Positions 4,973 through 51,743 of a DNA stretch of 64,000 nucleotides are shown in pieces. Each line of letters opens with the position of its first letter. Position 1 is the stretch's first letter. Under the pieces are notes generated by a model. The model was given only the letters and a program-made list of their open reading frames with translations. It did no database searches and was not told the DNA's origin. This stretch comes from Endomicrobiales bacterium (GTDB lineage: Bacteria; Elusimicrobiota; Endomicrobiia; Endomicrobiales; JALOBY01), in NCBI GenBank assembly GCA_963796955.1, contig CAWCNJ010000006.1, positions 102,691-166,690 on the forward strand. Reading direction: 5' to 3'. The position numbers and the translations under genes were made by a program.

Positions 4973-4973
4973 G

Positions 4974-5010: not shown

Positions 5011-5040
5011 CTTGAAAGGATTTTCCAGAATAAAAACAAA

Positions 5041-5076: not shown

Positions 5077-5088
5077 GTTGCTTTTTTA

Positions 5089-5117: not shown

Positions 5118-5149
5118 AGCCTGAAAATACTGCAAAACGCATAAAAGAA

Positions 5150-5177
5150 TTGATATTTATAGTATTTAACATATAAT
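5150..5177 (+). promoter_or_regulatory. candidate promoter of giant gene A
   Basis: TTGATA (5150-5155), a 16-nt spacer, then TATAAT (5172-5177). The same hexamers and spacing occur upstream of gene B (42004-42031). Confidence 0.55.
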
Positions 5178-5189
5178 TTATAGTGACGA

Positions 5190-15200: not shown

Positions 15201-18200
15201 ATTATCAGGCCAGCGATTGCCGCATGCAGGCATATTTAAACAAAGGCAATGGTAGTTTCGACCCTCAACAACATGCGTTTATGCCTGGTTTAGGCTTATA
15301 CGATGGCGGCATCACACTTGCAGATTTTGACGGGGATGGCGACCTGGATATGGCGGCGTGCGGCATGGATTCCAGTGGCAATCTCTTTTGTGGTCTCTTC
15401 ACTTCAAAATATACACAGATGTTCAGCGCCAACACCGCGCCCGTGCCGCCCGCAATATCCAGTATGACGTTCGTCTACAGCGGCTACACGACGGCAAAAA
15501 GCACATTTACCATAACCTGGCACCCGGCACAATACGATGTGGGCCATTCTTCCAACTCTGTTTACTTCAATGTTGAGGCGTCAACGTTCCCGACCACGCT
15601 TTCCACCGATAGGCTGCGCCTGGCCACCACGGGCCACTATCAGGAGGCTTGGAACTTCGGCACACCCAACATGGGTAACTTCATTCGCCCATCGGTATCC
15701 ACCAGCTGGGCCGGCGTAACCGGCACGCAGATGGTGGGCTACTTGTTCCAGCCATCAACCAGCGCATTTACGTTTAACACAACGTATTACTTCCGAGTAC
15801 AGACCATAGACAGTAGTCTTGCGCGCAGCACCTGGTCTGTGGAACAATCATACTATTGCGGCGACACCACGCCGCCCGCCGCTTTAACCAACCTTGCGGC
15901 GATAACCGGTTTCGGCCCTGGCACAATAAATCTTACATGGACCTCGCCGGGCGATGACGGCATAAGCGGCAACATAGTGGGTGGCGCTTACAAGATACGT
16001 TATTCCACTTACACGCCGTCATCATGGAATGACGCGGCTTCAAACTGGACTGATTATCTAAATAAATACCAGATAACGATCGCCACAAATTCTACGCCCG
16101 GCGTAACGCAGTCGTACTTGTTAACGGGCCTGACGGGCGGTGTCACCTATTACGTCCGCGCCTGGACGCGCGACGAAGTGGGTGTAGACAGCACCAGCTG
16201 GAACGGCAACTGGTCGGCGCTGTCGAATGGTGCGACATGCTGGGCGCAAATAAACCATGCGCCGAACGCCCCGACGAATCTAGCGCAACTTGATAGTTCA
16301 CTGGTAAATCTTTCATCCTTCAGCTGGACGAACTCGGGCACTATAATTTCGTCGTTTACGATAACCGACCCCGACGCCGGCCAGCAGGTGAAATATCATA
16401 TTCAGATAACAACTGTTTCCAGCAGCGGCCTTGCCACGTGGACGAGCGGTTACTTCCTGAACTACACTTCGTCGCTGTTGAACCAGGGAACAACAACTTA
16501 CACATGGTCCGCGCTTACGGCCGGCAACTTCTACTGGTGGAGGGTGTGGACTGAAGATGCAGGCGGCCTTACGTCGTCAACCTCAACATTGCTTGGTGTT
16601 AGCGGCAGCGGCGGCCCGGCGGTGTTGGCGTATAAAACTATGTTCGATCCTGTAGCGCTACAGCCGGATCCTGGGTTTAGTCCTAACGGCCAGGTTGATG
16701 TTAGCTCTGTGTGGGGCGATTTCGATAATGACGGATATCAGGACATTGCTGTAACAGGTAACAATTACACCGGGGAGGTTTTGTTCTATGACCATACCTC
16801 CGGCACATTCCCAGCTAAAACACAGATCGGGCAGTTAAGCGGACGCATACAGGCTGTAGATTACAATAACGATGGATCGCTTGATCTGGTGTTTGCGGGT
16901 TATGATAACAGCGTTTATGAGCAAAGATGCCGCGTTATTAAGAACCTTGGCGGCAAGGCATTCGCGGCGCCGGCTGATGTTGTGTCGGGCCTTACGGTAG
17001 GTAATTTTATGATCGCCGCGGCAGATTACGATAACGACGGGTATGCCGATATCGCACTTTGCGGCGGCGGAACTGGTAACGCTTTGTTTGTTTATACCAT
17101 TCACAACAATGGCGATGCTACATTTGGCAACGTCGTGTTGTTAGACACCGGTGGTAACAGCTATTACGGTTATGTGCCAGTTGCCTGGGGCGACATTAAT
17201 AACGATGGCTACCTGGATCTGCTGGCGAACATGAGTAGTACCAGGGAACTATGCGTTTACAAAAATAATTGCAACGGTACGCTGAACCATACGCCGATAG
17301 TGCCCGTGCCGGCCATGTCATATAACAGCCAGGTTGCATTTGCGGATTTCAACAATGACGGCAACCTTGATATTGTGTTGACTGGTCAACCCGGGATTAA
17401 TTTTATTAAGAACACCGGCAGCGGAAATAATCCGTTTGATCCTTCATATACCACAGTGGCAGGCAATGCCACCGGCGGCTATTTTGGGATTGGCGACCTT
17501 AACAATGATGGGTACCCCGATGTAATGCTTGAAGGCGAGAATAACTATCATAGTGACGACTTAAATTTCATGGCCTATTTAAATAAAAGCGGTAATTTCG
17601 ATCAGGATTACGTTGAAGTTGTCCCGGGCGGCGGTGTGGACAGAGGTAGTATAACTTTCGCAGATTTTGACGCTGACGGCGATCTGGATGTTCTCAGGCA
17701 GGGTATGGACGCAAACAGTGTAACCTCGCTAAGTGTATTTAAATCTAAGTACGCCGATATGAATGGCGCAAATATTGCGCCAGTGCCGCCCTCCGGCCTT
17801 GCCTGCCAGCCGGTTTACGCAACAACGGGTTCAACCGTAACGGTAACCTGGCCTGTTGCGCAGTATGATGCCGGCATCTCTTCGTGCGCGTTGTCTTTTC
17901 AGGTTGTTATATCCTCCGTTCCAATGACGTTGGATACCTCTAAAAAACTTGTAACAGCGCCAGGAGCATTTCTAAACAGCTGGACCTCGGAAGGCGATGG
18001 CTACGGAAGTTTTAACCGGCCAGCTGTAAAAGCCTGGGGCCTGGAACCAGCCGTTAAGTTTGGTTACCAGATGCGTATTAGCACAACGCAAATTGCTGTG
18101 GCAACAACCTATTATTACCGCGTGCAAACTATAGATTCCAGCCTGGCACGAAGCACCTGGTCTGCTGAAAGTATCATATACTTTGTGGCCAACAGTTCGC

Positions 18201-21200
18201 CGGCGGCTATTACCAATCTTTCTGCGTTAACAGGCAATTCAGCCGGTGAGATAAGCTTAAGCTGGGCATCTCCCGGAGCAGATGGAGCCATGAACGATAT
18301 TTACGGCGGGGCGTTCAAGATACGTTATTCCACCTATACCACGGCCTCCGCCGGTTTCTGGTTGGACGCGGCCTCTAACTGGACGGACCAGGCCAACAAG
18401 TATCAGGTGACCATTAACACTAATACTACGCCAGGCGCAATCCAATACTATACACTTGTTGGACTGTTGCCGGGTGTGACATATTATGTGCGTACCTGGA
18501 CGCGCGATGAAGTCGGCGTAGACAGCACCAGCTGGAACGGTAACTGGTCTACTCTATCTAATGGCGCGACGGCCTGGGCTATGACAACAACAATGCCTGC
18601 CGGTATTACCGACCTTGTGGCCACAAACAATAGTGCGCTCAGCACCGTTTTGCTAACATGGACGGCCCCGGGCGGTAACGGCCAGACGGCAGGCCTTCTA
18701 AGCGGTTCTGCTTTTAAGATAGCGTATTCCACCGTAAATGTGATATCCGCTGATAACTTTAACGTCTTGCCTTCGACCATGGCAATACAAACCATAACTA
18801 TCTCAACGGTTGCCGCGGCCATGAGCCCGCAAAGCTATAATGTTGGCGGCCTTGTAAACAACACCAAATATTGGTTTGCCATAAAGACCATGAACTCGGT
18901 CGGAAATTGGTCTGTCTGGCAGTCGTCGGCAGATGTTGCCGCCGATAACACACTTGCCAGCACGGTGTGTTCTTACGCTAATGTTGCCCCTACTATATCC
19001 AGCCTGCAAACGTTAAACGGTTCGTTCATTCCCATCAACTGGACAAACGCCGGCACCGTAATTTCATCGTTTACCATAAGCGATGCTAATGTTGGCCAGC
19101 TGGTAAGGTACAACGTCCAGATAACATCGCTCACGACGAATGGGGCGGCGGACTGGTCAGGTATATTTGTCAGCACCCGCTCAGCTTTAGTCAACCAGGG
19201 CGTTGAAACCTTTACCTGGCCCGCTCTTAATTCCAATGCCACCTTCTACTGGTGGCGCGCCTGGGCGGAAGACATAAATGGGGCAGTATCTTCCACCACA
19301 ACGGTTTCAGTTAGCGGCGACAAGGCCTTGGTGGCGAACAGGTCTATGTTTGATCCTGGTTACATCGCCCTTGACGCCGGCACACCGGCACCGGATTATG
19401 GAAAAACAGTCACTTTTGGTGATTTTAACGGCGACGGGTACCAGGACATAGCGACAGCGGGCTATCGCGATGCCGGCGGGTATACAGACATTACAAGAGT
19501 ATTTCTAAATAACGGCACGGGTGACGGTACTTTTAACGCGTCGTATATTACGCCGCCGCTACAAGCAGGCAATACCAGAAATATAATGAGATGGGGCGAC
19601 TTCAATAATGACGGTAATCTGGACCTGGTGCTTGGCGGATTCAACAAGCGCCTTGCTATTTGCCAGAACAACGGGGCCGGCGACTTTAACAACCCGCCGA
19701 TCTACCTTGATCCTGATGCCAGTTTCTGGTGTTGCAACGGTGCAGGTGCCGTTGGTGATGTGGATAATGACGGCCAGCTGGACATAGTGGTAAGTGGAAA
19801 TACCAATACTTCCGTCCTGATGCGTATATACCGCAATAATGGCGACGGCACATTTACGCAAAGCGAGCCTCAGGCCGGGTGGGGTACCAATACAGGCGCA
19901 TTGTCGTTGGTGGATGTTGATAATAACGGCAGTTTGGATATCGCGATGGGTGGTATTGACACCAACAGCGCTCCAGCATTCCGCATTTACAGGAATAACG
20001 GCAATGGAACCTATACATCTTACATTACGCCGGAAACTATCGATACGCCGTTTACAAGCATTTATACTGCCTGGGCAGATTTTGACAACGATGGCTTGCT
20101 GGATTGCGCTTTGGAAGGCGATGGCGTAGTGCGGCAGTACCATAATAACGGCAACAACACTTTTACCAGGTCGTCAATAACAAGCGATGTGTATTATAAC
20201 GGCGCTATTGATGCCGCTGATCTTAACAGCGATGGTTTTGTTGATGTTATCGTTACCGGCCGTGACGCCGGCTTTATAAGAGACCTGAAGACCTATCTAA
20301 ACAATGGTAACGGAACATTTGCCGCAGGCGATAGTATTCTGCCCGGTTGGGGCGTAGGCGGCACAAATTATTATGATAACGGCAGTATGGAAGCTGCCGA
20401 TACGAACAACGACGGTTTTCCCGACCTGGCAGCATATGGAGAAGACACCGCTCATACCGTATCATTGCGCGTATTTACCAACAAAGAAGCTGCTTTAGGC
20501 AATACGAACACGGCTCCCGTGCCGCCTGGAATTTCCAATATGACGTTTACCTACAGCGCCTCAAGAAGCACATTTACCGTAACGTGGCAGCCGTCTCGGT
20601 ATGATGTGGGCCATTCCTCCAACTCGGTTTATTATAATGTGGAAGTTTCCACTTATCCCACAACACTGCGATCAGACAAAAAGCGCATCGTAAATTCAAA
20701 CAAGTTCGTAGAAACCTGGGATTTTGGCAGCCCGAATCTGGGTAGTTTCATCCGCCCGTCTGTTTCCACCAGCTGGGCAGGCGTTAGCGGTACATCGATG
20801 GTGGGTTATACGATCGCACCCTCAACAAACAATTACCTGTTGAACGCCACCACCTTCTATTTCCGCATTCAGACAATAGATTCCGGATTAATGCGCAGTA
20901 CCTGGTCGGCGGAGTTCTCATGCCTTGCTTCAACGAACATTGCACCTGCTGGTCCTGCAGGCATAACGGATCTTTATGCAGCAAACAACGCCGGCATCAG
21001 CGGCATTTCGCTGACTTGGACAGCCTCCGGCGACGCTGGCCAAAGCGGCAACCTTACCAGCGGCTCGGCTTTCAAGATAGAATATTCGACAGTAGGAATA
21101 ATTACCACCGGCAATTTCGATACGCCGCCTGCAAACCTTGCCGTGACAACGATCAATATCTCTACAACGACAACGGCACAAAGCCGCCAGAGCTGGAGCC

Positions 21201-24200
21201 TGCCCGGGCTGCTTAATAACACCACCTACTGGTTCGCGATTAAGACAGAAAACAGCGAAGGCCAGTGGTCAACGTGGCAGTCATCAGCTGATGTGGCGGC
21301 TTACAATTTATTCTCAAGCACTGTTTGCCTCTATTCGAATGTTGCACCCGATGCGCCCGCAAATCTTGTTCAGATAGATGGCACACTGGGCAATGTATCT
21401 TCATTTACCTGGACAAGTTCCGGCAACATTGTTTCGTCGTTCACGATAACCGATCCAAATGGCGGCCAGCAGGTGCGCTACCACATACAGGTTTCAACGG
21501 TTTCGGATTTTGTGTCTGGCCTTGCCACGTGGACTAGCGGCTACTTCCTTAACTACACATCGTCATATTTGAACCAGGGAACAACGACATATGCATGGCC
21601 TGCCCTTACAGCCGGTAAATTCTACTGGTGGCGCGCGTGGGTGGAAGATGCTTATGGCCTTGCATCATCCACTTCTTCGGTGCTCTTAAGCGGCGGCACC
21701 GCGGCATTCGCTTACAAGACCTCATTTGATCCGCAGGGCAGCAATCCAATACCATGGACGGCGAACGCGTCAGCCAATGGCCAATTTACCTTTGGAGATT
21801 ATAACAACGACGGTTACCCTGACCTTGCAATATGGGGCGACGACCCTACGGCGAAACTGCACGTTTACAACAATTTGGGCGGTGGATCTTTTAACGCGAC
21901 ACCGGTGCAGCCAGCTTCCGGCTTTGGCGTCGATCACACTTCAAATGACGCTTGCAGCTGGGGAGATTTCAACAACGATGGTTACCTGGACCTTGCGGTT
22001 TCGGGCTGGGGCAGTGGGTCAGCATACACCTGTGAAGTTTTCAAAAATAACGGAAGCGGGGGTTTTGCAGCGACACCGATATTGCCAATAACCGGCTGGG
22101 GCGTTGCGTATAGCCCATCTGTCGCCTGGGGCGATATTAATAATGACGGCAATCTGGATCTTGCTGTTATGGGTGGTTATAATGCTGTCAACTTCCTTCG
22201 TATCTTCAAGAACAAAGGAGATGGAACTTTTGACACGAATTATATTGAGCCAACCCCCGGCTGGTCGCCAAAATCGGGTTATATAAACGGAAGCCTTACT
22301 TTTGCCGACATCAACAACGATGGAGCCATGGACCTTATTGTGGGCGTAGATGCTCCGGGCACGGAAGGAAGGGTTTACCTGAACAAGGGAGACGGCACCT
22401 TTAACCCGGCTTACGTATCGATAGACGCTGCCAAGACGGTCTGCGGTGATCTTGACAATGATGGATGGATAGATCTGGCTATGTCGGAATACAATAATAT
22501 CAGGATCTACACCAACAACCACAGTGGCGGTTTTACCACAAGCACTTTGCCAAACTCAAACTATAATGACGGGATCCTTGCCTGCGGCGATTTTGACGGT
22601 GATGGTTTCCTGGATTTAGCGGCGGCGGGGCAGGTTCTTAACAATAATGCCAATTCTGCTTCATTGAAGATAATACGCAATAACGGCGCTGGAAGCTATG
22701 CGGCGGCTGTGGATGTTTTCCCGGGCTGGGGCCTGTTTAGCTCCTGCATAGGTGCCATCGATTACGAAAACGATGGAGACCTGGATATAGCCGTTTGCGG
22801 CACCGACAGGAACAACAGCAGCAATGTTTTCAGGATATTAAAAAACACACAAGCGCAGATGTCCAACGCCAATGTGGCGCCCACTCCGCCCGCAGGCATA
22901 ACGGCTTTGTCTTCTTACGACCTTAATATCGCGTCCATAACCCTATGCTGGACGCCCGCGCAATATGATGTAAGCCATTCGTCTAACTCCATTTATTATA
23001 ACGTGGAGATGTCCACATTCCCTACAACGCTTTCCGGTGATAATCTGCGCCTGGCAACCAACGGCCGCTACACTTTGCCCTGGGACTTTGGCAACCAAAC
23101 CCTTGGCTCATACGTCCGCCCGCCGGTAAAACAGTGGCCGGGTTCGTCTCAGCCAACACACGGAACTGCCTTTAATGTTTCACTTGCCGCTTTAGGCGCG
23201 AACCCTACATATTATTACCGCGTTCAGACCATTGACAGCGGCCTTATGCGCAGCACCTGGTCGGCGGAATACCAAGTTTGTATTCCCGCGCCCTCTGCCC
23301 CCAATGCGCCCACAGGTTTAACGCAGTATATTGTCGGTGGCTCCACGCTTGTAACGTTTGGCTGGGCTGGCAAGACGGGCGATGTTGTAGCTTCGTCATT
23401 TACCATAACTGACCCTAACGGAAGCACGCAGGTTAAATACCATATTCAGATAACCTCCGTAACGCCGCAAAATTCGCCTCTTTGGAGCCAGGGTTTGTTC
23501 GTGGATTATACTTCCGGCTGGCTTACTCAGGGCTCAACAACCTATTCCTGGCCGGCACCGCCCAATGGCGGCAGGTACTGGTGGCGTGTATACGCGATAA
23601 ACCAGAGCAGCGTGGCATCCTCCGCCGCGACACTGCTTCTCGATGGTTCGAACCCAGTAATATCTTTAAAAACGGACATAGACCCGATAGGCGCCGACAT
23701 TGTGCCCGGCCTTGGGGTTACAGACGGTTCTTTAGAGCTTGGTGATTTTGATAACAACGGAACGCTTGACCTTGCGGTTATCGGTTGGAACGGCACCGGC
23801 CAGATATGCCGCGTATATAAAAATAACGGGGACGGGACATTTAACCAGACACCGGTTTCACCGATCACAGGCTTTGGCGCCGAACGCGGCCAGGCCGCCT
23901 GGGGAGATTTCAACAATGACGGCTATTTGGATCTCGCCGTTTGCGGCAATGGCTCCACCCGGTCGTGTTATGTTTTCCGCAACAAAGGGAACAGCACGTT
24001 TGACTCTACACCCATACAGCCACAAACAGGCTTCACAGCAAGATGGGCCGCTATAGCCTGGGGCGATTTCAATGGCGACGGTTACCTTGACCTTGCCGTA
24101 ACCGGCAGGGATGACTCGAACAATTACAAGTTCTATACATTTAATAATTTTGGCAACGGCAGCTTTAATCAAACGCCTGTAGAGCCCGATCCAGGCTGGG

Positions 24201-27200
24201 GCGTTGGCAACTACCAATCAGGCCTGGCCTGCGCGGATTACGATAACAATGGCACCCTGGACCTTGCAATTACGGGACTGGCTCAAAATGGTAGCGGTTA
24301 TGCGCGAATTTACAAGGGTTATGGCAATGGAACATTCAATCCTGCGTTCGTAAATCCCGACGTAAACAGCGATACGTTCCTTGGCACGAACGCATTCGCA
24401 GATTATAACAATGACGGTAATCTGGATCTGGCGATAGCTGCCGGCACATTCAGGATAGATACAAACAAAGGCGACGGCACTTTTAACGCTACTCCAGTTA
24501 TGCCTGAAGGCAGCGGCGGTTACCAACGTGCCGCTACCAATGGTTATATGGCAAGCCTTGCCTGGGGCGACCTTAACAATGACGGTAAGCCTGACTTGGT
24601 AATGAACGGCGCGACTATTGGCGGCACAAACACCTCACGCACATACACTAACAACGGGAACGGCACATTTACCGCGGCTGATATTTCTCCGGGTTGGGGT
24701 GTTAATGGCGCTGTGGCCATCGGAGATATTGACAACGACGGCGACGAAGATATTATTGCAGAGGGCACTCAGGCTTCTAACAGCGCAATATACTTGCGTG
24801 CCTTCCGTAACAGAAACAACGATATGGGCAATGTTAACGTTGCACCCAGCGCCCCAAGCGGTATGTTGTCGCAGGTTTCGTATTCTGTAACATCATCCAC
24901 CATAATTATCACCTGGCCGCCATCTCAATACGACAGCGGCATGTCTTCCTGCTCGCTTTCTTATCAGGTAGCTGTTGCCACGATGTCTATGACGCTGGCC
25001 TCGAACCAGACGTTGATACAATCCCCCACATCATTCATGACCCCATGGGCCAGTGAAGGCGACAGCTACGGCACATTCAACCGCCCGCCGGTAAAGGTGT
25101 GGGGAACAGATGTTACGCCTAAACATGGCTACCAGCTGAACTTAAGCACCAACTCAATAAAAGCCAACACCACCTATTATTACCGCGTGCAGACAATAGA
25201 CAGCAGCCTTGCAAGAAGCAACTGGTCAACGGAATTTACGTATTTCACGGGCACACCGCCCTCTGGCGTAACAGACCTGTATGCAACCGCCGGCGGAATC
25301 GGCACTGGTGCCGTAATGCTAACATGGACGGCCCCCGGCGATGCCGGCCAAATTGGTAACCTAGCCACTGGCTCAGCGTTCAAGATCGAGTATTCATCGG
25401 TTGGCATTATCAATTCCAGCACGTTTACTTCGCCGCCGGCGAGCCTTGCCGTTAAGAGCATTACTATATCCACTAACACCACCGCCATGAGCCCGCAAAG
25501 CTACAACGTTACGGGACTTATCGGCAGTACCACCTATTGGTTCACCCTGGAAACAGAAAACGCCGAGGGCGTGTGGTCTGTCTGGCAGTCATCGGCAGAT
25601 GTCGCCGCCTACAACGACTTTGCCTGGGCTTATACAAATTATGTAAATCTCGCCCCGAATGCGCCGTTCAACCTTGCGCAGATAGACGGCAGCCTCGGCA
25701 ATATCTCGTCGTTTACGTGGACGAATTCCGGCAACATTGTTTCGTCGTTTACTATAACCGACCCCAATGTTGGCGATCAGGTGCGGTTTGATATTCAGAT
25801 CACCTCGGTAACAACAAATGAAGCCGCCGATTGGACGAGATTGTTCGTTAGCACTCGTTCAGCGCTGATGAACCAGGGAACCACAACCTACACCTGGCCA
25901 ACGCTCAATCCCAACGCCTTCTACTGGTGGCGCGTCTGGGCGGAAGATAGTTTTGGCTTAACGTCGGCTACATCTGCCGCGCTTGGTGTTATTGGCAGCA
26001 CGGGCCCTGCGGTAGTTGCATACAAAACGCCGTTTAATGCGGCTTACCTAGAGCCTACTCCCGGCTGGGGATTTGGGTGGTGGACAGCACTTGCCTGGGG
26101 CGACTTGAATGGCGATGGTTACCAAGACCTTGCAGTGATCGGTACGGATGTTAGTTATACACGCACTCTGAGAGTGTATTTAAACAATGGCGATGGCACC
26201 GGATCCATGAATCCATCTTACATAGTACCCGAGGCTGGTGTTGGCTTGGCCCTGGGAGATTTAGCGTGGGGTGATTTTAATAATGATGGAAATATGGACC
26301 TTGCGGTTACCGGATTTAACGGCAGTGACCCCGGCCTGCTAAGAGTTTATGTTAACAACGGCTCCGGTGGCTTTAGTGCCAGCCACGTTGATCCCATCCC
26401 TGGCTGGGGCAGATACGGGAGCGCTGTTGCCTGGGGCGACTATGATAATGACGGCAACCTTGACCTGGCGATGATGGGTTCCGACGGCGGCCCTGTCAGC
26501 GACGGTGTATTTAGAATATTCCGCAACAAAGGCGATGGAACATTTGACCCTAACTTTATTGAGCCGCAAACAGGCTGGGGTATGTCAAGTGGCCGTATGT
26601 GCTGGGCAGATTACAACAACGACGGCGATCTGGATATATCTTTATGCGGCAATAACACAAGCGGTGCGACTGAGGTGCGTGTATATAGAAACAATGGCAA
26701 TGGCACATTTAACCCGACGCCAGCCTTTGTAAAGAGCGGTATTGGTGACATAGCCTGGGGCGATTACAGTAATGGCGGTTTCCTGGACATGTGTGTTTAT
26801 GATATGGCCGCTGGCATACAGATTTATTCAAACACTGGTAGCGGTTCTCTTAGCGGAACACCAACAAATATCTGTTCCGACGGCGGCGGCATGTGGAGCA
26901 TAAAGCTAGCTGCTGCTGATTATGATAACGACGGCAACATTGATGTGGCGGCTTCAGGGCAAATTGGCAGCCTTAACATGGGCAACGTAAGATTCCTTCA
27001 TAACAACGGAAATTCCACATTCTCAGGTTCACGTTCAACGCCCCTGCCTGGTTTGGGAATTAACGGTACTCTCGCGCTATCAGATAATAATAACGACGGC
27101 GATGTTGATATAGCCGCAGCCGGTGTAAGTCAAGCCGGCGACAGATGTTTCCTTGGCATTTTCCAAAACATGGAAGCCCAGATGGGCAATGCCAATACAC

Positions 27201-30200
27201 CGCCCATGCCGCCCTCTGCCAGCATAAACTTTAATTACAGCGGCTTTGCAACGCAGAAGAGTACCTTCACCATAACCTGGCAGCCAAGCCAGTACGATGT
27301 GGGCCACTCGTCTAACTCTATTTACTTTAATGTTGAAGCCTCCACATTCCCGACGACACTTGGCAGCGGCGACAAACGCATAGCCACCACCGGCCGTTTT
27401 GCACAATCCTGGAACTTCGGCAGCCCCAACCTTGGCAGCTTCATACGCCCGGCTATCTCCACCAGCTGGGCCGGCGCAACAGGCACAAGCATTGTGGGCT
27501 ATACTTTCGCGCCCTCAACCAGCGCGTTCGTATATAACACCACATACTATTTCCGAATTCAGACAATTGATTCCGGCTTAATGCGCAGCACCTGGTCTGC
27601 CGAATGTAAATGCCAATCCGCCGTGCCGCCAGCCGTTGTAACAGACCTTTATGCTACCGCCGGCGGCATAGGTTCTGGCGCGGTAATGCTTACCTGGACA
27701 GCCCCCGGCGATGCCGGACAGACCGGAAACCTTACAGCAGGCTCGGCGTTTAAGATAGAATACTCCACTGTTGGCATTATCAATTCAAGCACATTCACTT
27801 CGCCGCCGGCAAATCTTGCGGTGAAGACGGTAACGATCTCAACCAACACCACCGCCATGAGCCTGCAAAGCTACAACATAACGGGCCTAATTGGCAGCAC
27901 CACCTACTGGTTCGCCTTGGAAACTGAAAATGCCGAGGGTGGCTGGTCCATCTGGCAATCATCAGCCGATGTTGCCGCCTACAACCTGTACGCCAGCACC
28001 TGCACGGCGTTTATACCGCCCGCCATGATATATCGTTCCGTTGGGCCCGGCAGCACAACTGCATTAGTTACGGGCGCGGGAAATGGGCTTGTTATTTCCG
28101 GCAGTACCGCGACATTCGATAGCGGCCTTCCAAATAAAGTAGGCGTAGGTGATGCCATACAGTACGATGCTAACAACGATGGTACTGTTGATGCTATTCT
28201 CTTTATTTCAAGCAGAACGTCGGCGACAAGTTATACTGTGCAAAGCGCTGATGGCAAAACTGCACCAACTGCTACATCGGTAAAAACCAACACCTGGTCG
28301 GTATTTAGATCGTACACATCTTTGCATAATGTGCTTCAGTCACTGACGGTAAACAGCGGCATTAGCGGCCTGGTAAGCGGTAGCGTTAACCCGGGCATAA
28401 ACCTGGTGTCAAATAATGTGCAGCTGAATATCGCCTGTTACGGTGATGCGGCCGACACCACCAAGGTAGCTTTTAGCGGAATGTGGGTAACAAGCCCATC
28501 GAATAAGATCAGGATATTTACACCAGTTTCCAGCGGCGAGGCCGGCGTCAGTCAGCGCCATACAGGTATATGGGATACGGGCAAATATTACATTGAGAGT
28601 GGCAATGGGCATATCCTCTTGTTAGAAGTTAACTATATAGTAGTTGATGGTTTGCAAGTACATCTTAACTCAACTAGCAGTTCCGATACACGAGCAATAG
28701 GAATGAGTACACCCGCAGGCGCTTGCGATATCACTGTTGAGAACTGTATAGTAAGAGGTTCTACGAGTACCAGTAATACATATGACTACTTCGGTGGCAT
28801 TGTTGATGGAGGCGGAAGCGGAACTGGCGTGATAAAGATAGTAAACAATATAGTATATGATTTCGCTGCGGGTGGCGGGGGGATTACTCACGTTGGCATT
28901 GCAGGGGTTGATGGCGGTGTCTGGTACTACGTTTATAATAATACGGTATATAATTGTAAGGATGGTTTATTTTTTGGCGGTAACGACACTCTTAAAAATA
29001 ACATCTCGTATGGAAACTCAGAGTCAAATTACAACAATGCCGGTGTTGGCAATAATAATAACCTTTCCGGCCCTACGCTGGCGGATGCACCAGGTACAAA
29101 CCCCCTTAACAGCGCTCCCGTGCAATTTGTTGATGCCAACCGCTACGACTTGCGCCTTAGTGTAAGCGAAAGCTCCGCTACCGATAAGGGCGCTAACCTT
29201 TCGTCCGACGCCAATTTGCCATTCTCCACCGATGTTCTCGGCAACGCCCGCCCATACGGCGCGGCATGGGACGTTGGCGCATTTGAAAATTATCAAAATG
29301 TTCTCGGCGTGCCGCAGACTCTTACGGTTACCAATGTATATTATAGTTCTGTAACAGTTACATGGAACCTTATCAACGGCGCGACAGGCTATACGCTGAT
29401 CGCCTCTACATCGTCCAATATTCCGGTTACCGTATCCGCTTCAACCACCACGACCGGTGTAAATGCAACATCCGCGACGGTATACTCTCCCGCATTAAGC
29501 CTAGCAACCACCTATTATTTCTTCGTTCAGTCCACCGGCAACGCACTCGCAAGCGCCTGGTCGCTGCCGGTCTCAACAGTAACCTTGTCTGGCGACATCA
29601 CACCGCCAGCCGCGATAACCAATCTTGCGGCAGTCACCGGTTTTGGCCCCGGCACCATTAACCTTTCCTGGACCTCACCCGGTGATGACGGCATAACTGG
29701 CAATATTACCGGCGGCGCGTATAAGATACGTTACTCCACCTATACCCCAACATCGTGGAATGATGCCGATACCAGCTGGGCTGACTACGTCAATAAATAT
29801 CAGATAACGATAGCCACAAATTCTGTTCCAGGTGTAACGCAGTCTTATCCGCTTACCGGACTTACCGCTGGCGTAACCTATTACATTCGCGCCTGGACGC
29901 GTGACGAAGTGGGCGTAGACAGCACCAGCTGGAACGGCAACTGGTCGGCGCTGTCAAACGGCGCCACAAGCTGGGCGCAGATGGATACGGCGCCAAACAC
30001 CCCAATCAACCTTGTGCAGATAGACGGCACGCTGGGCAATATCTCTTCATTTACGTGGACAAACTCCGGCGTAATAACGTCGTCGTTCACACTGAGCGAC
30101 CCAGATAGCGGCCAGCAGATTAAATATCATATCCAAATAACCACTGTTTCCAGCAACGGTCTTGCCACGTGGACCAGCGGCTATTTCCTGAATTATACCT

Positions 30201-33200
30201 CGCCGTTATTGAATCAGGGCACAACCACTTACACCTGGCCCGCGATGACAGCCGGGAACTTCTACTGGTGGCGCGTCTGGGCGGAAGACAGTTATGGTTT
30301 AACATCTGCGACAACAACTGCCTTGATGAGCGGCGGTCCGGCAGTCTTTGCTTACAAAACCGCGTATGACGCAAAATATATAGAGGTTAACCCGGGCTGG
30401 GGAGTTGGGGGCAACGCCCATGGATCTTCAATTAAGTGGGGCGATATAGAAAATGACGGTTACCAGGATCTGATGGTGGCGGGCGAAAATCAGATTGGAG
30501 GCGAAGAGTTCTGCATTTATGATAACGCCAAAAATGGTTCCTTTAATGCTTCACCAATACATCCTAAACCGGGTTTCGGGGTGTCATGGTCGCCTTCCTG
30601 CGCTTGGGGCGACGTTAACAACGACGGCATTCAGGATGTGGCGGTTATAGGCGCCTCCGCTGATGATGTTTCTGGTTATACATTCAGGGTCTTTGCGAGC
30701 AATGGGAACGGCACGTTTGGCGCCGCCCAGGAGCCTACTGCCAACTGGGGCGAAGAAAATGCGGGCATAGCTTTGGGTGATTTTGACAACGATGGCTGCC
30801 TTGATGTTGTTGTTAGCGGCGCGGACGATGCTAAGGTGTCGGCCAATTTTAGAATTTATCGCAATAACGGCGACGGCACTTTCGGCCCTAACTTTATAAG
30901 GCCGGATATACCGCTTGAAAGCTCGGGTGATGAAAACGGCGGCGGCGACACATTGGCGTGCGGCGACTACAATAATGACGGTCTTATGGATATAGCGATT
31001 TCCTGGCCGACAGGCCTTGTACGAGTCTATAAAAACAATGGCGATCTTTCATTTGCCCATTTGACCAATGATATTTGTTCGTTCTTTGATTCCAATATTG
31101 CCTGGGGGGATTACAACAATGATGGATACCTTGACCTGTTTGTAGCAGGCCATGGTTTTACCGGCGTATTTCACAATAAAGGCGATGGCACGTTCGACTC
31201 TTCCGTAAATATTGCCGGTAATAATACTTTTACAGGAATTTCAGGCCAGGCGCCACTGTCACTTTGTGTCGGAGATTATGACAACGATGGCAATCTAGAC
31301 CTTGCCGCCGCCGGCCTTGACTATGCTGCCGGTACTGCGCGGAAATTGTATTTGTTCCACAACAACGGCCATGGCGCGTTTGACAGCGGCCCCGTTGAGA
31401 CGATGCCTGGCTGGGGTGTTGTAGATTGTTCGCTTGCCTTCGCGGATTACAACAACGATGGCGGCCTTGACCTGGCTGTTTCCGGGGCAGACAACAATAA
31501 TATAGCCCGCTGCTGCGTCTTTAATAACATGGAAGCCCAGATGGGCAATGCCAATACGCCGCCCATGCCGCCCTCTGCCAGCATAAACTTTAATTACAGC
31601 GGCTTTGCAACGCAGAAGAGTACCTTCACCATAACCTGGCAGCCAAGCCAGTACGATGTGGGCCACTCGTCTAACTCTATTTACTTTAATGTTGAAGCCT
31701 CCACATTCCCGACGACACTTGGCAGCGGCGACAAACGCATAGCCACCACCGGCCGTTTTGCACAACCCTGGAACTTCGGCAGCCCCAACCTTGGCAGCTT
31801 CATACGCCCGGCTATCTCCACCAGCTGGGCCAGCGCGCCCGGCACCTCAATGGTCGGTTATACGTTTGCGCCCTCCACCAGCGCCTTCTTGATGAACACA
31901 ACATGTTATTTCCGTATTCAGACGATAGATTCCGGCCTTGCGCGCAGTACCTGGTCAACGGAGAGTTCGGTGTATGTGTGTGGTTCTCCTACGGTGCCTG
32001 TGCTTGTTTCGCCGTTAGACAATTATGCTACAAACCAAATGACCGTTACATTCAATTGGGCTGACTCAACGGACACGATCTCAAATTCCAATTACACACT
32101 CAGGCTATCATCGTCTCCCGATTTCTCAGGAGTAACCTATTCATCTAATACCGTAAATATGTATGCCTCAATGGCCTTGACTACCAGTAAATGGTATTGG
32201 AGCGTTCGGGCGGGTAACCCGGTGGGCGCCTACAGCGCGTGGTCGTCAACGTGGTCGGTGGTGGTAGACACCCTAGCGCCGAGCGTGCCGATACTAACAT
32301 CGCCACTAGATAATTTCACAACCAACCAGATGGTGCTGACATTTGGCTGGAGCAGCGCGACCGATAACCTGACCGGTGTGAATGATTACACGCTGAGGCT
32401 TTCTACTGCGCCGGATTTCACGGGCGTAACGTATTCATCGATAACAGCGAACATTGTAGCCCAAATGTCGCTGACAACTGGCCATTGGTTCTGGGCAGTG
32501 CGTTCATTAGATAACGTAGGAAATTATTCAGCCTGGGCCTCGACATACACGCTGATTGTTGACACAACACCGCCGACGGTGCCTATCCTTACCGGCCCTC
32601 TGGACGGCTCAACGACCAATCAGACGGTGTTGACGTTCAACTGGGGCATATCCACGGATGACATAACAGGCCTGGCTAACTACACGCTTACCTTATCAAC
32701 AGCAGCTGATTTCAGTGGGGTAATATATTCGTCAATTACGACGAACACATCAGCCGCGATGACTATCCAGAGCTCCGATAAATGGTATTGGACGGTGCGT
32801 TCAGTCGATAATGCTGTAAATTATTCAGCATGGGCGAGCACGTGGTCGGTGGTCGTTGATACGCATGCTCCGACGGTACCGATACTTATAACGCCGCTTG
32901 ATAACTTCACAACGAACCAAATGACGCCTGCATTCGCCTGGCAAGGTTCAACGGATACGCTTTCAGGCATAGCGAATTATACGTTGCGCTTGTCGACCGC
33001 GCCAGATTTTAGCGGTACTATATACAGCTCAACAACAGCCAACACCCTTGCCAGCAGGGCGTTAGTTTCGTGCCGGTGGTACTGGTCGGTTCGAGCCGCA
33101 AACAATTCCGGCAACTACAGCGCCTGGTCGTCAACGTGGTCGGTGGTCATAGATACCGTATCCTCAAGCATACCGGTACTAACGGCGCCGTTAGATAACT

Positions 33201-36200
33201 ATACTACGAACCAAATGACGCTGACGTTTAACTGGAATATATCGATGGACAATCTGTCCGGCGTGAACGGCTATACGCTGCAGCTTTCAACGGCTCCCGA
33301 TTTCACCGGCGTGACGTATTCGTCGATAACAGCGAACAATTCAGCCGTAATGGCGTTGACAACGAACAAATGGTATTGGACGGTGCGTTCGCAAGACAAT
33401 GCGGCGAACTATTCAGCGTGGGCTTCAACGTGGTCGGTGGTCGTGGACACGATAGCGCCGACAATGCCGATACTAACGACGCCGCTGGACAACTTCACCA
33501 CGAACCAGATGACACTGGCGTTTAACTGGGGAAGCGCGACGGACAACCTTTCCGGTGTGTCCGGCTATACGCTGAGGTTGTCGACAGCAGCCGATTTCAG
33601 TGGGGTGATAATGTTGTCGGTAACCGATAACACCGCTGCCACAATGAACCTGACTTCTAACAAATGGTACTGGACGGTCCGTTCAGGCGACAACGCGGGC
33701 AACTACAGCACGTGGGCATCCACGTATTCTCTGGTGGTGGACACGGTAGCATCAACCGTGCCGCTGCTGCTTTCGCCGTTGGATAACTTTGCGACGAACC
33801 AAATGACGCTGTCGTTCAGCTGGAGCAGCGCAACGGACAATTTAACGGGTGTGAATGATTATACGGTGCAGTTGTCTACAGCGGCGGATTTCACCGGTGT
33901 AACCTATTCTTCAATCACAGCGAACACGGCAGCTCAAATGGCGCTGACCTCCGACCGGTGGTACTGGACAGTACGCTCACTGGACAACGCGGCCAACTAT
34001 TCAGCCTGGGCCTCGACATGGTCGCTGGTAATAGACACAACACCGCCAACGGTGCCTATCCTTACCAACCCGCTGGATGGTTCGACAACCAACCAGACGG
34101 TTTTAACGTTTAACTGGGGTGCCTCGACGGATGACATAACAGGCCTTGCCGGCTACACCCTGCGGTTATCAACAGCGCCTGATTTCAGTGGGGTGATATA
34201 TTCGTCAGTTACCGGAAACACCGCAGCAAGAATGACTATTCAGAGCTCCGACAAATGGTATTGGTCGGTGCGGTCAGTTGATAATGCTGAGAACTATTCA
34301 GCGTGGACGAGCACGTGGTCGGTGGTGGTAGACACGCGTGCGCCGACCGTGCCGCTGCTGCTTTCACCATTGGACAACTTCACCACAAACCAGATGACAC
34401 TGGCGTTCAATTGGCAGGGCTCAACGGACACGGTTTCAGGTATTACGAACTATACGCTGCGGTTATCGACGGCCCCCGACTTCAGTGGTACGACGTATAG
34501 CTCAACAACGGCCATCACCGCAGCCATCATGAACTTAACGACTAACAAATGGTACTGGTCGGTACGCGCCTTAAATAATTCGGGCAACTATTCCAACTGG
34601 TCGTCAACATGGGCGGTGATTATGGATACTGTAGTGCCGAGCGTGCCGATATTGACCTCGCCGCTGAATAATTTCACAACGAACCAAATGACGCTGGCGT
34701 TCAACTGGAACAGCGCGACCGACAATCTGACAGGTGTGAACGATTACACACTGCGGCTTTCTACCGCGCCAGATTTCACTGGTGTAACATATTCATCAAT
34801 AACAGCGAACACCGCAGCCCAGATGGCAATGACCTCCGGCCGGTGGTACTGGACGGTGCGTTCGCTGGATAACGCGGCTAACTACAGCGCCTGGGCATCT
34901 ACGTATACGCTGGTGGTGGACACAACACCTCCGACGGTGCCGGCCCTCACTGGCCCTCTGGATGGCTCAACGACCAACCAGACTATGGTAACATTCGGCT
35001 GGAATTCTTCAACAGATGACTTAACCGGTGTGGCATGCTATACCTTGCGATTCTCGACAGCGCCTGACTTTAGCGGGGCGATATATTCATCAGCCACGAC
35101 AAATACTATTGCTGCAATGACAATACCTGCTTGTGCAAAGTGGTACTGGACAGTGCGTTCCAGTGACAATGCCGGGAATTATTCGGCGTGGGCTAGTACG
35201 TGGACGGTACTCGTCGATACACGTGCCCCGACCGTGCCGCTGCTGCTGTCGCCGCTGGACAATTACACCACGAACCAGATGGCGCTGACGTTCAGCTGGC
35301 AGGGCTCAACGGATACGCTTTCGGGTGTTGCGGATTATACGCTGCGAATATCTACCGCGCTGGATTTTAGCGGTACAGTATACAGTTCAACAACGGGCAA
35401 TACTCTGGCCGGCATGACACAGGTTTCAAACAAATGGTATTGGTCGGTGCGTGCCGCAAACAATTCCGGTAACTACAGCGCCTGGTCGTCAACGTGGTCG
35501 GTAGTGATCGATTCCACGCCATCAAGCGTACCGGTGCTGACGGCGCCGTTGGATAATTATACAACGAATCAAATAACGCTGGCGTTCAGCTGGAACAGTG
35601 CGACCGACAATATATCCGGCGTGTCCGGTTATACGCTACGGTTATCTACTGCCTCAGATCTCAGCGGGGTGGTGTATTCATCGGTGACGGCAAACAATGC
35701 GGCTGTCATGATGTTGTCGACGAACAGATGGTACTGGACGGTGCGCTCGGTGGACAATGCAGCGAACTATTCTGCCTGGGCGTCAACGTGGTCGGTGATC
35801 ATTGACACCGTTGTGCCTAACGCGCTGAACGACCTTGCAGCCGCCCCGGGTTTTGCGCTGGGCAGCATAGCTCTGCACTGGACTTCGCCGGGTGATGACG
35901 GCCCAAGCGGCGCTATTATCGGTGGTTACTACAAAGTGCGGTATTCTACGTATACCACCGCCTCGGGAGCTTTCTGGACGGATGCGGCGGCGAACTGGGT
36001 GGACCCGGTCAACAAATATCAGATAACGATCGCAACTAATACGAATGTCGGCGATACACAATCGTACACCTTGAGCGGTTTAACGCAGGGCGTTACCTAT
36101 TATATTCGTGCCTGGACGCGAGACGAAGTTGGCGTTGACAGCACGACTTGGACCGGCAATTGGTCGGCGTTGTCGAACGGGGCGACATGCTGGGCGGCCT

Positions 36201-40354: not shown

Positions 40355-40362
40355 GGCCGTTC

Positions 40363-40380
40363 CATGCAAACATGGTTGCA
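40363..40380 (+). terminator. weak hairpin after the OMP-TPR gene
   Basis: ATGCAA (40363-40368) pairs with TTGCAT (40375-40380) around a 6-nt loop. Only a short T-rich tail follows. Confidence 0.25.
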
Positions 40381-40474
40381 TTTAGTATCCTTTTAAATTA
40401 ATTTTGGATTGATATATTGTACATGTCAGTTAAATGTTGGCTTGATATTGTTGTCAAAATAGCTTAAACTTGAC

Positions 40475-40503
40475 TTGACTATGTTAACATTAGTGTGTAT
40501 AAT
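40475..40503 (+). promoter_or_regulatory. near-consensus promoter of ATPase gene 2, geometry implies a leaderless mRNA
   Basis: TTGACT (40475-40480), a 17-nt spacer, then TATAAT (40498-40503). The A of ATG 40510 is the 7th nt after the -10 hexamer, the same geometry as at 3798-3833. Confidence 0.55.
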
Positions 40504-40509
40504 TGTGGT

Positions 40510-41832: not shown

Positions 41833-41892
41833 TACCCAAGTAACCTTGAGTACTAAAACGATGGCCGCGTTACGTATGATGGTGCATTGTTT

Positions 41893-41930
41893 AAAAACAC
41901 ACACTTAGATTAATTGGTGTGTGTTATTTA
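41893..41930 (+). terminator. rho-independent terminator (ACACAC hairpin), copy 2
   Basis: CACACAC (41898-41904) pairs with GTGTGTG (41917-41923) around a 12-nt loop (TTAGATTAATTG). TTATTTATT follows. It is homologous to 5041-5076. Confidence 0.6.
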
Positions 41931-41941
41931 TTGCTTTATCG

Positions 41942-41970
41942 TTGAAAATTCAGTAATATTTGTTGTTACC
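41942..41970 (+). promoter_or_regulatory. conserved upstream box, copy 2
   Basis: TTGAAAATTCAGTAATATTTGTTGTTACC; see 5089-5117. Confidence 0.5.
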
Positions 41971-42003
41971 TGCCATACAGACGCCCTTAAACGTCTAAAT
42001 GTA

Positions 42004-51529: not shown

Positions 51530-51743
51530 CTGTTTTCCTCAACACCGGTAATTTCACCTTCAATACCGTGTCTCCCATTGTACTGACATCCACTATCAAC
51601 AATTTCACGAACGTCGCCGCGGGTGACGTTGATAATGACGGCCTCTCGGACGTATTTGTCGCCGGCAGCACCGGCACGGCATTGTATTACAATCGTAATG
51701 GAAGTTTTGTAAATCAACCCACCTTTCCATTCTGGCCGCTGTA
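50714..51743 (+). repeat. 1,030-bp tract near-identical to 5682..6712 in gene A
   Basis: See 5682..6712. This copy carries the 1-nt deletion that breaks gene B. Confidence 0.9.
51295..51296 (+). other. frameshift site 2 (one T missing relative to the gene A copy)
   Basis: Gene A reads ggt tct tgt gcc ccc tcg ctt cag tgg ctg gat (6258-6290). Gene B reads ggt tct gtg ccc cct cgc ttc. Restoring the T gives GSCAPSLQWLDVENDGDLDLAMAG and runs straight into ORF 51352..61947. Confidence 0.9.

What the first reader, a model, noticed from the sequence alone, without database searches (positions are those of the whole stretch)
28008..29292. Single right-handed beta-helix domain embedded in gene A: a possible enzymatic or glycan-binding head
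This is the only segment of gene A that is neither propeller nor beta-sandwich. It shows PbH1-like turns (..ENCIVRGS.., ..IVNNIVYDF.., ..VYNNTVYNC.., ..LKNNISYGN..) and the cap motif RYDLRL...S.A.D.G......D..GN.RP.G..WD.GA.E. I recognise that motif from pectate-lyase-fold / choice-of-anchor-Q-type proteins. Beta-helix domains in surface and phage-tail proteins commonly bind or cleave polysaccharides. Here one is mounted in the middle of a very long repeat protein, bracketed by the 306-bp conversion-like repeats.
Basis: partly seen in the sequence, partly recalled or inferred. Interest (0 to 1): 0.6.

Follow-up and report, generated by a model that had tools for sequence, protein, structure and literature searches.

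The report
Barrel-capped beta-helix module in giant protein
The flagged stretch is a real, well-folded ~428-residue right-handed beta-helix unit inserted once into a giant secreted protein. It belongs to a large, unnamed family of surface and phage-tail building blocks, and nothing found here shows that it is an enzyme.

Summary
All the quoted motifs lie in frame in gene A (12200-38653, 8817 aa) at aa 5271-5698.

The beta-helix fold is supported by three lines:
- an AlphaFold2 model (pLDDT 90, pTM 0.92);
- Foldseek, whose best hits are beta-helix proteins (RbtA, Pel9A, GH136, phage proteins);
- an independent co-variation analysis showing in-register coil stacking.

The cap passes the NCBIfam choice-of-anchor Q model (about 30 bits, cutoff 25). 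No Pfam beta-helix, PL or GH model hits.

The unit is more than a helix. It consists of an N-terminal beta-barrel, about 7 coils and a fold-back cap.

It is not a one-off "head". Its profile finds 3,777 clusters at E<=1e-30, mostly in uncultured Patescibacteria, Bdellovibrionota, Omnitrophota and similar lineages. The unit is often chained back to back, up to 15-17 copies per protein. It also occurs as stand-alone genes in phage structural gene blocks.

The helix faces are the least conserved part. The only near-invariant columns there are the Asn/Thr/Gly ladder. Conserved polar residues (E5447, Q5452, R5453, H5454) sit at the barrel/first-coil junction.

My best reading is a rigid, non-catalytic adhesive or structural module. 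An enzymatic role is not excluded. I rate it a new variant of a known kind, of moderate interest.

The parts
12200..38653 (+). Gene A: 8817-aa ORF that carries the module. It has about 45 FG-GAP repeats, fn3 and Ig-like domains and a C-terminal CHU_C sorting domain.
28010..29293 (+). The complete module (gene A aa 5271-5698): one autonomous folding unit. It is the single copy in the window.
   Evidence: Family HMM 477 bits over HMM positions 4-424. AF2 pLDDT 90.2, pTM 0.92. Homologues cover about 98% of it.
28022..28321 (+). N-terminal small beta-barrel (aa 5275-5374). It carries YRSVGP, VGVGD, a DxNxDGxxD loop, R5339 (R69) and R5370/Y5372 (R100/Y102).
   Evidence: AF2 strands 5-99. Modelled alone: pLDDT 93.8. 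Weak fold matches to barrel domains of LKA1 tailspike gp49, endosialidases and GH110. Conservation.
28322..28417 (+). Short helix plus a variable linker (aa 5375-5406). The helix packs on the first coil.
   Evidence: AF2 helix 105-111, pLDDT dip at 121-130. Co-variation pairs 108-139 and 108-141.
28418..28588 (+). First beta-helix coil and the most conserved loop, T-P-x4-E-x-G-x-S-Q-R-H-x-G-x-W (aa 5407-5463; E5447, Q5452, R5453, H5454, G5456).
   Evidence: 97-99% conservation in 586 instances. Co-variation of position 179 with 69, 75 and 100 places the loop on the barrel.
28589..29089 (+). Beta-helix coils 2-7 (aa 5464-5630), with the Asn-ladder turns ENCIVRGS, IVNNIVYDF, VYNNTVYNC and LKNNISYGN. 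This is the most variable segment of the family.
   Evidence: AF2 strand pattern. In-register co-variation at offsets of about 31-32, then 20-23. 1.44 bits per column against 2.2-2.4 elsewhere.
29090..29287 (+). C-terminal cap (aa 5631-5696), including the RYDLRL...WDVGAFE motif. The NF041518 choice-of-anchor Q match covers nt 29165-29287.
   Evidence: Co-variation shows the cap packing back on the helix flank (381-314, 390-332, 400-309, 403-278, 380-187).
27536..28009 (+). Sandwich-type (fn3-like) segment directly upstream (aa 5113-5270). It duplicates the first ~160 aa of the ~790-aa super-repeat unit.
   Evidence: blastp: 5113-5341 against 4323-4555, 59% identity.
29312..29398 (+). Start of the fn3 domain directly downstream of the module.
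   Evidence: Weak Pfam fn3 hit (E 0.047) at residues 485-513 of window:27860-29420. aa 5770-6564 matches the full super-repeat unit 4324-5111 at 50%.
27156..27472 (+). Left copy of the near-identical 317-nt repeat.
   Evidence: 7 mismatches to the right copy
31515..31831 (+). Right copy of the near-identical 317-nt repeat (offset 4359 nt).
38381..38638 (+). CHU_C type IX secretion sorting domain at the C-terminus of gene A (marginal score).
   Evidence: Pfam PF13585, 28.5 bits against a cutoff of 27.

Best explanation
The segment is one copy of a self-contained extracellular module of about 420 aa. The module has a small N-terminal beta-barrel, a right-handed parallel beta-helix of about seven coils, and a choice-of-anchor-Q cap that folds back along the helix.

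It belongs to a large family with no Pfam model. Members are used in three ways: as back-to-back chains in giant surface proteins of mostly uncultured, often cell-attached or predatory bacteria; as the C-terminal tip of shorter secreted proteins; and as stand-alone genes in phage structural gene blocks.

In gene A a single copy was inserted at a boundary between two ~790-aa propeller/fn3 super-repeats. Gene A is secreted or surface-anchored.

The most likely working mode is a rigid, non-catalytic rod. Its conserved residues (Asn ladder, barrel/first-coil junction, acidic cap) hold the fold together. Its fast-evolving helix faces and loops provide a ligand-binding, probably glycan- or cell-envelope-binding, surface.

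Shown here: fold, boundaries, family size, chaining, conservation pattern. Inferred: binding role, absence of catalysis, Ca2+ binding by the Asp-rich loops.
For: Fold: AF2 pLDDT 90.2, pTM 0.92. Foldseek best hits are all right-handed beta-helix proteins: RbtA 9cdu/9cdv, Pel9A 1ru4, GH136, and phage 'right handed beta helix region' proteins. Mean-field co-variation on 586 instances gives in-register coil-stacking pairs at offsets of about 31-32 and then 20-23.

Cap: NF041518 scores above its cutoff.

Family: 19,456 / 9,107 / 3,777 cluster representatives at E<=1e-3 / 1e-10 / 1e-30. Arrays reach 15-17 modules; P0049 is 11 modules with no linkers. 72 genomic loci were found, all in MAGs.

Phage context: P0030 lies downstream of SU10_MCP and adaptor genes, among tail and internal-virion genes. 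Tandem copies occur on IMG/VR contigs.

Non-catalytic reading:
- No Pfam, PHROGs or PDB sequence hit to any PL, GH or CE family.
- Coils 2-7 are the least conserved segment; the only columns at >=90% are the ladder Asn/Thr and one Gly.
- R183/H184 are kept in 97% of 586 copies, even in 17-copy arrays, and also in the barrel-less variant. That fits a folding or capping role better than a redundant catalytic site.
- Companion domains are adhesion or anchor types: Calx-beta, Laminin_G_3, PKD, Big_5, fn3, PG_binding_1 and T9SS tails. None is catalytic.
- Gene A itself is FG-GAP/fn3/Ig with a CHU_C tail.
Against: - A cluster of nearly invariant polar and aromatic residues (D48, R69, R100, Y102, Y144, E177, Q182, R183, H184, W188) is unusual for a purely structural interface. 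It could be a pocket for a ligand or for catalysis.
- The barrel-then-beta-helix order is also seen in glycan-cleaving proteins (LKA1 gp49, GH110), although the matches are weak.
- Most phage beta-helix tail proteins that have been studied are depolymerases (general knowledge).
- I could not inspect model coordinates, so residue exposure and pocket geometry are untested.
- No ligand is known for any family member. The best structural match, RbtA, has no known function.
Confidence: 0.5

Rival explanations
1. The module is a glycan-cleaving enzyme: a new lyase, hydrolase or esterase family. Its active site lies not in a groove along the helix but at the junction of the barrel and the first coil, formed by E177/Q182/R183/H184 with D48/R69/R100/Y102/Y144. 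Gene A would then carry one depolymerase unit, and the phage homologues would be tailspike-type depolymerases.
For: - Near-invariant polar cluster, brought together according to co-variation (69/75/100 with 179).
- Fold-level resemblance to Pel9A, GH136, GH110 and the LKA1 gp49 tailspike.
- Position of stand-alone homologues in phage structural or tail gene blocks.
Against: - No sequence match to any catalytic family.
- All Foldseek matches are weak (TM <=0.38, E >=2e-5).
- Chains of 11-17 copies that all keep the motif are atypical for enzymes.
- R183/H184 persist when the barrel half of the putative site, including Q182 and E177, is lost.
- No catalytic companion domains.
Confidence: 0.2
2. 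The module is a pure spacer: a stiff rod of about 4 nm that only adds length and rigidity, like other stalk elements of giant adhesins. It has no ligand of its own. In gene A it is a passenger of recombination between repeat units.
For: - Linker-less head-to-tail chains (P0049, 11 modules).
- Conservation concentrated at the ends (barrel, first coil, cap), which would form module-module joints.
- Insertion at a super-repeat boundary, with near-identical flanking repeats.
Against: - The module is frequent as the C-terminal tip of shorter proteins, and as a stand-alone signal-peptide protein in phage genomes. A spacer alone makes little sense in either setting.
- The helix faces are hypervariable, with indels, as expected for diversifying binding surfaces.
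Confidence: 0.25
3. The pattern is a chance resemblance or low-complexity artefact and not a real domain.
For: No Pfam beta-helix model hits.
Against: - Homologues at E 1e-94.
- 477-bit family HMM match.
- High-confidence AF2 model.
- Co-variation contacts.
- NCBIfam hit above its cutoff.
Confidence: 0.01

Closest known systems
NCBIfam NF041518, choice-of-anchor Q domain
   Same: The last ~40 residues (L-x-x-D-x-x-P-F-x-x-D-x-x-G-x-x-R-x3-W-D-x-G-A-x-E) score above the curated cutoff. As the name implies, family members carry different anchors: T9SS tails, PG_binding_1 or none.
   Different: The model covers only the cap (about 40 of 428 residues), and only 4 of 38 aligned family members pass it at E<=0.01. 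It says nothing about function. No paper in the searched library mentions it.
Rhombotarget A (RbtA) N-terminal beta-helix domain of Acinetobacter baumannii (PDB 9CDV/9CDU)
   Same: It is the best PDB fold match (E 4.7e-4, prob 1.0). It is a cell-surface beta-helix protein with no detectable PDB sequence relatives.
   Different: TM-score is only 0.35-0.37, with 11-14% identity. RbtA's function is unknown, so the match transfers no mechanism.
Right-handed parallel beta-helix carbohydrate-active enzymes and phage tailspikes (PL9 Pel9A 1RU4, GH136 LnbX/TnX, GH110, LKA1 gp49 4RU4)
   Same: Same fold class. A barrel followed by a beta-helix is also the order in LKA1 gp49 and GH110. Stand-alone homologues sit in phage structural gene blocks.
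   Different: E-values are only 1e-3 to 1e-1 and TM <=0.3. No sequence-level match to any of these families. No conserved acidic or basic residues on the helix body. No N-terminal virion-binding domain in the phage homologues; their N-termini look like signal peptides.
Giant surface proteins of predatory and episymbiotic bacteria (West-Roberts et al., bioRxiv 10.1101/2023.11.21.568195)
   Same: The taxa overlap: Omnitrophota, Bdellovibrionota, Patescibacteria. Both are very long extracellular proteins built from repeated folding units with proposed adhesion roles.
   Different: The helices described there are long antiparallel beta-helix tubules of about 1500 aa. They are not chains of discrete ~420-aa parallel beta-helix modules. 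The module studied here is not described in the passages I read.

Membership tests
Choice-of-anchor Q domain (NCBIfam NF041518) | HMM score at or above the curated cutoff (25 bits) | tested here: met
   29.8 bits and 30.4 bits, E 3-5e-7, model positions 21-56 of 58, at gene A aa 5656-5696.
Right-handed parallel beta-helix fold (pectin-lyase-like) | Three-dimensional fold: stacked coils of short parallel strands with an Asn ladder | tested here: met
   AF2 pLDDT 90.2 with a regular strand pattern over residues 137-341. Top Foldseek hits are all beta-helix proteins. In-register co-variation between successive coils. N279/N310/N330/N351 conserved at 93-100%.
Pfam Beta_helix (PF13229) / NosD (PF05048) / PbH1-repeat sequence families | Significant match to the family HMM | tested here: not met
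   No such hit at E<=10 for the segment, nor at E<=1e-3 for 10 other module-bearing proteins. One of 38 family members hits TIGR03804 para_beta_helix at 2.6e-4.
Polysaccharide lyases / glycoside hydrolases / esterases with beta-helix fold (PL1, PL3, PL6, PL9, GH28, GH110, GH136, CE8) | Sequence membership (Pfam or PDB relatives) and the family's catalytic residues in a groove on the helix | tested here: not met
   No Pfam hit. No PDB sequence hit with the single sequence or the profile. No conserved Asp, Glu, Lys or Arg at >=90% on coils 2-7. CAZy/dbCAN models as such were not available.
Polysaccharide lyases / glycoside hydrolases / esterases with beta-helix fold | Enzymatic activity on a glycan substrate | not testable with these tools
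   Needs expression and assays.
Phage tailspike / tail-fibre proteins | Encoded in the tail gene block of a phage | tested here: inconclusive
   Met for homologues only. P0030 lies between SU10 MCP/adaptor genes and tail/internal-virion genes. The window copy is in a cellular giant gene. No PHROGs or GenBank-phage match.
Phage tailspike / tail-fibre proteins | Trimeric assembly and an N-terminal virion-attachment domain | not tested
   No multimer prediction was possible. The phage homologues consist of a signal-peptide-like N-terminus plus the module only.
Type IX secretion cargo (for gene A as a whole) | C-terminal sorting domain (CHU_C / Por_Secre_tail) | tested here: met
   CHU_C at 28.5 bits against a cutoff of 27, at the extreme C-terminus. 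The score is marginal. The host looks like Elusimicrobiota rather than Bacteroidota.

The most novel reading that the evidence does not exclude
The barrel-helix-cap module is a previously unrecognised functional unit shared between phage tails and the giant surface proteins of predatory, episymbiotic and other uncultured bacteria. It would have a composite active or binding site at the barrel/first-coil junction (D48, R69, R100, Y144, E177, Q182, R183, H184). That would make it a new family of cell-envelope glycan-degrading or glycan-locking modules. Chaining up to 17 copies would give processive or highly multivalent attack on prey or host surfaces.
Probability: 0.15. Interest if true: 0.7.

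Novelty: new variant of a known kind. Interest (0 to 1): 0.4.

Why it matters
Taken alone, a beta-helix domain in a giant adhesin-like protein is ordinary.

The value lies in the family it revealed. This is a well-defined unit of about 420 residues with thousands of sequence clusters and no Pfam, PHROGs or PDB coverage. It forms bead-like chains in some of the largest bacterial proteins, in Patescibacteria, Bdellovibrionota and Omnitrophota, and it also appears in phage structural gene blocks.

Defining the module, its boundaries and its invariant residues gives annotators a handle on large stretches of currently unannotated giant proteins. It also gives experimenters a compact fragment that is confidently predicted to fold on its own, suitable for testing what these surface fibres bind or cut.

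Tried and rejected
- Pfam scan of the segment at E<=10: only a weak fn3 hit from the neighbouring domain, and no Beta_helix, NosD, PL or GH model.
- PDB sequence searches with the single sequence and with the family profile: nothing meaningful. The L24 and ParM hits at E 0.15-0.6 are noise.
- PHROGs scan of the segment and four stand-alone homologues: no family.
- tblastn against 50,697 GenBank phage records: no match.
- Literature search for 'choice-of-anchor Q': zero papers.
- 'Rhombotarget' papers give a structure but no function.
- Tracing the source contig by exact look-up of the TPR protein and of TypA (P0197): not on record. Cluster look-up gave no names.
- Bacteroidota origin, which I had assumed from CHU_C: rejected, because the best named TypA relatives are Elusimicrobiota at 74-82%.
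- Paralogy of the barrel to FG-GAP repeats: rejected. There are only short DxNxDG-type matches at E>=0.07.
I substituted conservation mapping and co-variation contacts.
Full report
**1. The observation**

Gene A is an uninterrupted ORF at 12200-38653 (+), 8817 aa. The finding's start is 2 nt out of frame. In frame (from 28010) the segment is aa 5271-5698. It contains every quoted motif: ENCIVRGS (nt 28739), IVNNIVYDF (28838), VYNNTVYNC (28931), LKNNISYGN (28991) and RYDLRL...WDVGAFE (from 29141).

The boundaries are precise. The sequence just upstream ends an fn3-like domain (...TYWFALETENAEGGWS...). A new fn3 starts about 5 residues after the module.

A family HMM finds exactly one copy in the six-frame translation of the window (477 bits). 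Of gene A, only aa 5350-5701 and the C-terminal 460 aa lack paralogues in the four giant ORFs of the window. So the claim that this is the odd segment out is essentially right.

The flanking near-identical repeat is real: 27156-27472 against 31515-31831, 317 nt with 7 mismatches.

**2. Fold**

Pfam gives no beta-helix, NosD, PL or GH hit, even at E<=10. PDB sequence searches also give nothing. NCBIfam does recognise the cap as choice-of-anchor Q: 29.8-30.4 bits against a cutoff of 25.

An AlphaFold2 model built on 38 homologues is confident (pLDDT 90.2, pTM 0.92). Numbering below is gene A aa minus 5270. The model shows:
- a small beta domain (residues 5-99);
- a short helix (105-111);
- about seven coils of short strands (137-341);
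- a C-terminal cap (about 361-426).

Foldseek against the PDB returns only right-handed beta-helix proteins at the top: RbtA 9cdu/9cdv (E 4.7e-4), Pel9A, and GH136 lacto-N-biosidases. TM-scores are at most 0.38. Against BFVD the top hits are phage 'right handed beta helix region' proteins (E 2e-5).

As a check independent of AF2, I ran mean-field direct-coupling analysis on 586 module instances (Meff 542). The strongest couplings are in-register pairs between successive coils. Offsets are first about 31-32 (211-242, 213-245, 244-278, 246-280, 248-282, 280-311, 282-313, 284-315) and then 20-23 (311-331, 313-333, 331-351, 334-354). This is the signature of a parallel beta-helix.

The same analysis places other parts:
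- the first strand of the module against the first coil (6/7/12/15 with 138-146);
- the short helix on the first coil (108 with 139/141);
- the conserved loop on the barrel (179 with 69/75/100);
- the cap folded back along the helix flank (381-314, 390-332, 400-309, 403-278, 380-187).

The N-terminal 128 residues modelled alone are confident (pLDDT 93.8). They resemble, weakly, the barrel domains of LKA1 tailspike gp49, endosialidases, GH110, lambda tail-tip proteins and F1-ATPase (best E 1.5e-2).

**3. The family**

The whole 430-aa segment, not just the helix, is the conserved unit. There are 46 homologues at 31-43% identity over about 98% of it. None has a Pfam domain on the module, and all are named 'hypothetical'.

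A profile search of 1.84 billion cluster representatives gives 19,456 hits at E<=1e-3, 9,107 at <=1e-10 and 3,777 at <=1e-30.

In the 72 genomic loci (all MAGs) and in the top proteins, the module is very often chained head to tail. Examples are 6 copies in L004, 7 in L020, 12 in L044, 15 in P0047 (6257 aa) and 17 in P0048 (7731 aa). P0049 (4483 aa) is nothing but 11 modules without linkers.

A shorter variant lacking the barrel (HMM positions about 145-422) also recurs, with 154 instances.

Hosts are mostly Patescibacteria, Bdellovibrionota, Omnitrophota, FCPU426, Myxococcota and Thermodesulfobacteriota, with a few Bacteroidota. The genome scan used a single sequence pattern, so this list is a sample and not a census.

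In Bdellovibrionales and Myxococcota loci the module frequently forms the C-terminal end of the protein.

Companion domains are Calx-beta, Laminin_G_3, fn3, PKD, Big_5, PG_binding_1 and T9SS tails. No catalytic domain was found.

**4. Phage link**

The stand-alone ~440-aa homologue P0030 lies on ~84-97-kb contigs. It sits a few genes downstream of an SU10-type major capsid protein and two adaptor genes, among genes matching tail protein, peptidase and internal virion protein families. P0036 sits next to a Laminin_G_3 protein.

IMG/VR contigs carry single and four-fold tandem copies.

These phages are absent from GenBank phage records and from PHROGs.

The phage proteins consist of a signal-peptide-like N-terminus, the module and a short basic tail (YYRRR...). 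I saw no virion-attachment domain. Their role as tail spikes is therefore inferred from gene position only.

**5. Conservation and what it says about mechanism**

Across 586 full-length instances the gene A copy is 23-45% identical to the others (median 35%). It keeps every near-invariant residue.

Near-invariant columns fall into four groups:
- the barrel: S10, G45-V46-G47-D48, I66, G82;
- the first coil and its loop: Y144, T161, P172, E177, Q182, R183, H184, G186;
- the ladder: G214, N279, N310, T312, N330, N351;
- the cap: F373, D380, D408, R414, D421, G423, A424.

Coils 2-7 are the least conserved segment, at 1.44 bits per column against 2.0-2.4 elsewhere. Their only columns at >=90% are ladder residues. 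No acidic or basic residue there reaches 90%; the best are D213 (85% acidic) and K329 (75% basic). So there is no conserved catalytic groove of the kind seen in PL1, PL9 or GH28.

The polar cluster at the barrel/first-coil junction is the one candidate site. Two observations lean towards a structural role for it:
- It is retained in 97-99% of copies, even in 15-17-copy arrays.
- The barrel-less variant keeps R183-H184-x-G186 while losing Q182, E177 and P172.

The DxNxDGxxD loop in the barrel and the Asp-rich cap suggest Ca2+ binding. This is an inference from motif resemblance and is not tested.

**6. How the module sits in gene A**

Gene A is built from ~790-aa super-repeats (propeller plus sandwich domains). 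The unit that contains the module is 1453 aa long. Residues 5113-5270 duplicate the start of a unit, then comes the module, and then a full unit follows (5770-6564 matches 4324-5111 at 50%). The module is thus an insertion at a unit boundary.

Gene A has a marginal CHU_C sorting domain at its C-terminus and no signal peptide. The upstream 2347-aa ORF does have a signal or TM N-terminus. The two ORFs overlap inside what reads like a single fn3 F-G motif. They are therefore probably one gene of about 11,150 aa, split by a frameshift.

The window's TypA is closest to Elusimicrobiota MAGs among named hits (74-82% identity).

**7. Verdict**

The fold and the cap identity are right.

I read the module most probably as a rigid, non-catalytic adhesive or structural unit (0.5). 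The rivals are a pure spacer (0.25) and a new enzyme with a junction site (0.2).

Relative to what is known, it is a new variant of a known kind: a beta-helix surface or tail module. It belongs to a large family that current domain libraries do not cover, apart from the 40-residue cap.

Noticed in passing
window 12113-12233 (junction of ORF 5190-12233 and gene A): The 2347-aa upstream ORF has a signal/TM-like N-terminus and gene A has none. The two frames overlap by 34-121 nt inside what reads as one fn3 F-G motif (...FYAWRA | AEDSFGLTSS...). They are probably a single gene of about 11,150 aa, split by a frameshift that could be a sequencing error, a pseudogene or programmed.
   Followed up: partly
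window 51352-51529 (junction of ORFs 42068-51529 and 51352-61947): The same pattern appears in a second pair of giant FG-GAP/fn3 ORFs (3153 + 3531 aa). The first has a signal/TM N-terminus and the second has none, with a 178-nt overlap.
   Followed up: partly
window 1964-3769: TypA/BipA is 100% identical to a protein from a 191-kb public contig. Its best named relatives are Elusimicrobiota MAGs (74-82%). The window is therefore probably Elusimicrobiota, even though gene A ends in a (marginal) CHU_C type IX sorting domain that is typical of Bacteroidota.
   Followed up: partly
window 3833-4972 and 40495-41832: Two AAA_14 + DUF4143 ATPase genes flank the gene A block. The second lies in a low-GC stretch (GC 0.415 at 40001-42000 against about 0.52 around it).
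   Followed up: no
window 25166-31962: Gene A has a super-repeat of about 790 aa (2370 nt spacing). One unit is enlarged to 1453 aa by the module plus a duplicated unit start. A 317-nt stretch is 97.8% identical between successive units, while the neighbouring sequence is only about 70-80% identical, which suggests recent gene conversion.
   Followed up: partly
L073-L076 (P0030) and alignment A1: Stand-alone phage-borne homologues start with a typical signal-peptide-like sequence (e.g. MRNFILILLLPFSLFAQT|AIYRSVQP) and end in a conserved basic tail (QNYYRRRLFE / YYRRRIIDP). Both features are odd for a virion tail protein.
   Followed up: no
P0047, P0048, P0053, P0097, L034, L044, L051, L057: A barrel-less version of the module (helix + cap only) alternates with full modules in a regular pattern within giant arrays, e.g. 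one short module followed by 3-4 full ones in P0047 and P0048.
   Followed up: partly
window 28154-28192 (gene A aa 5319-5331, QYDANNDGTVDAI): The barrel carries a DxNxDGxxD hairpin loop resembling the Ca2+-binding loops of the FG-GAP repeats in the same protein. It gives only short, non-significant matches to them (E>=0.07), and it is deleted in some family members.
   Followed up: partly
L064 (JBAZCR010000033.1): One module-bearing contig is binned as a Pacearchaeota archaeon. It is a 3.3-kb contig, so mis-binning or lateral transfer cannot be told apart.
   Followed up: no
L071 (Bacteroidia bacterium KatS3mg027): The closest genomic relative of the barrel part (46-52% identity) is split over three ORFs in different frames. 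This suggests a frameshifted or decaying copy.
   Followed up: no
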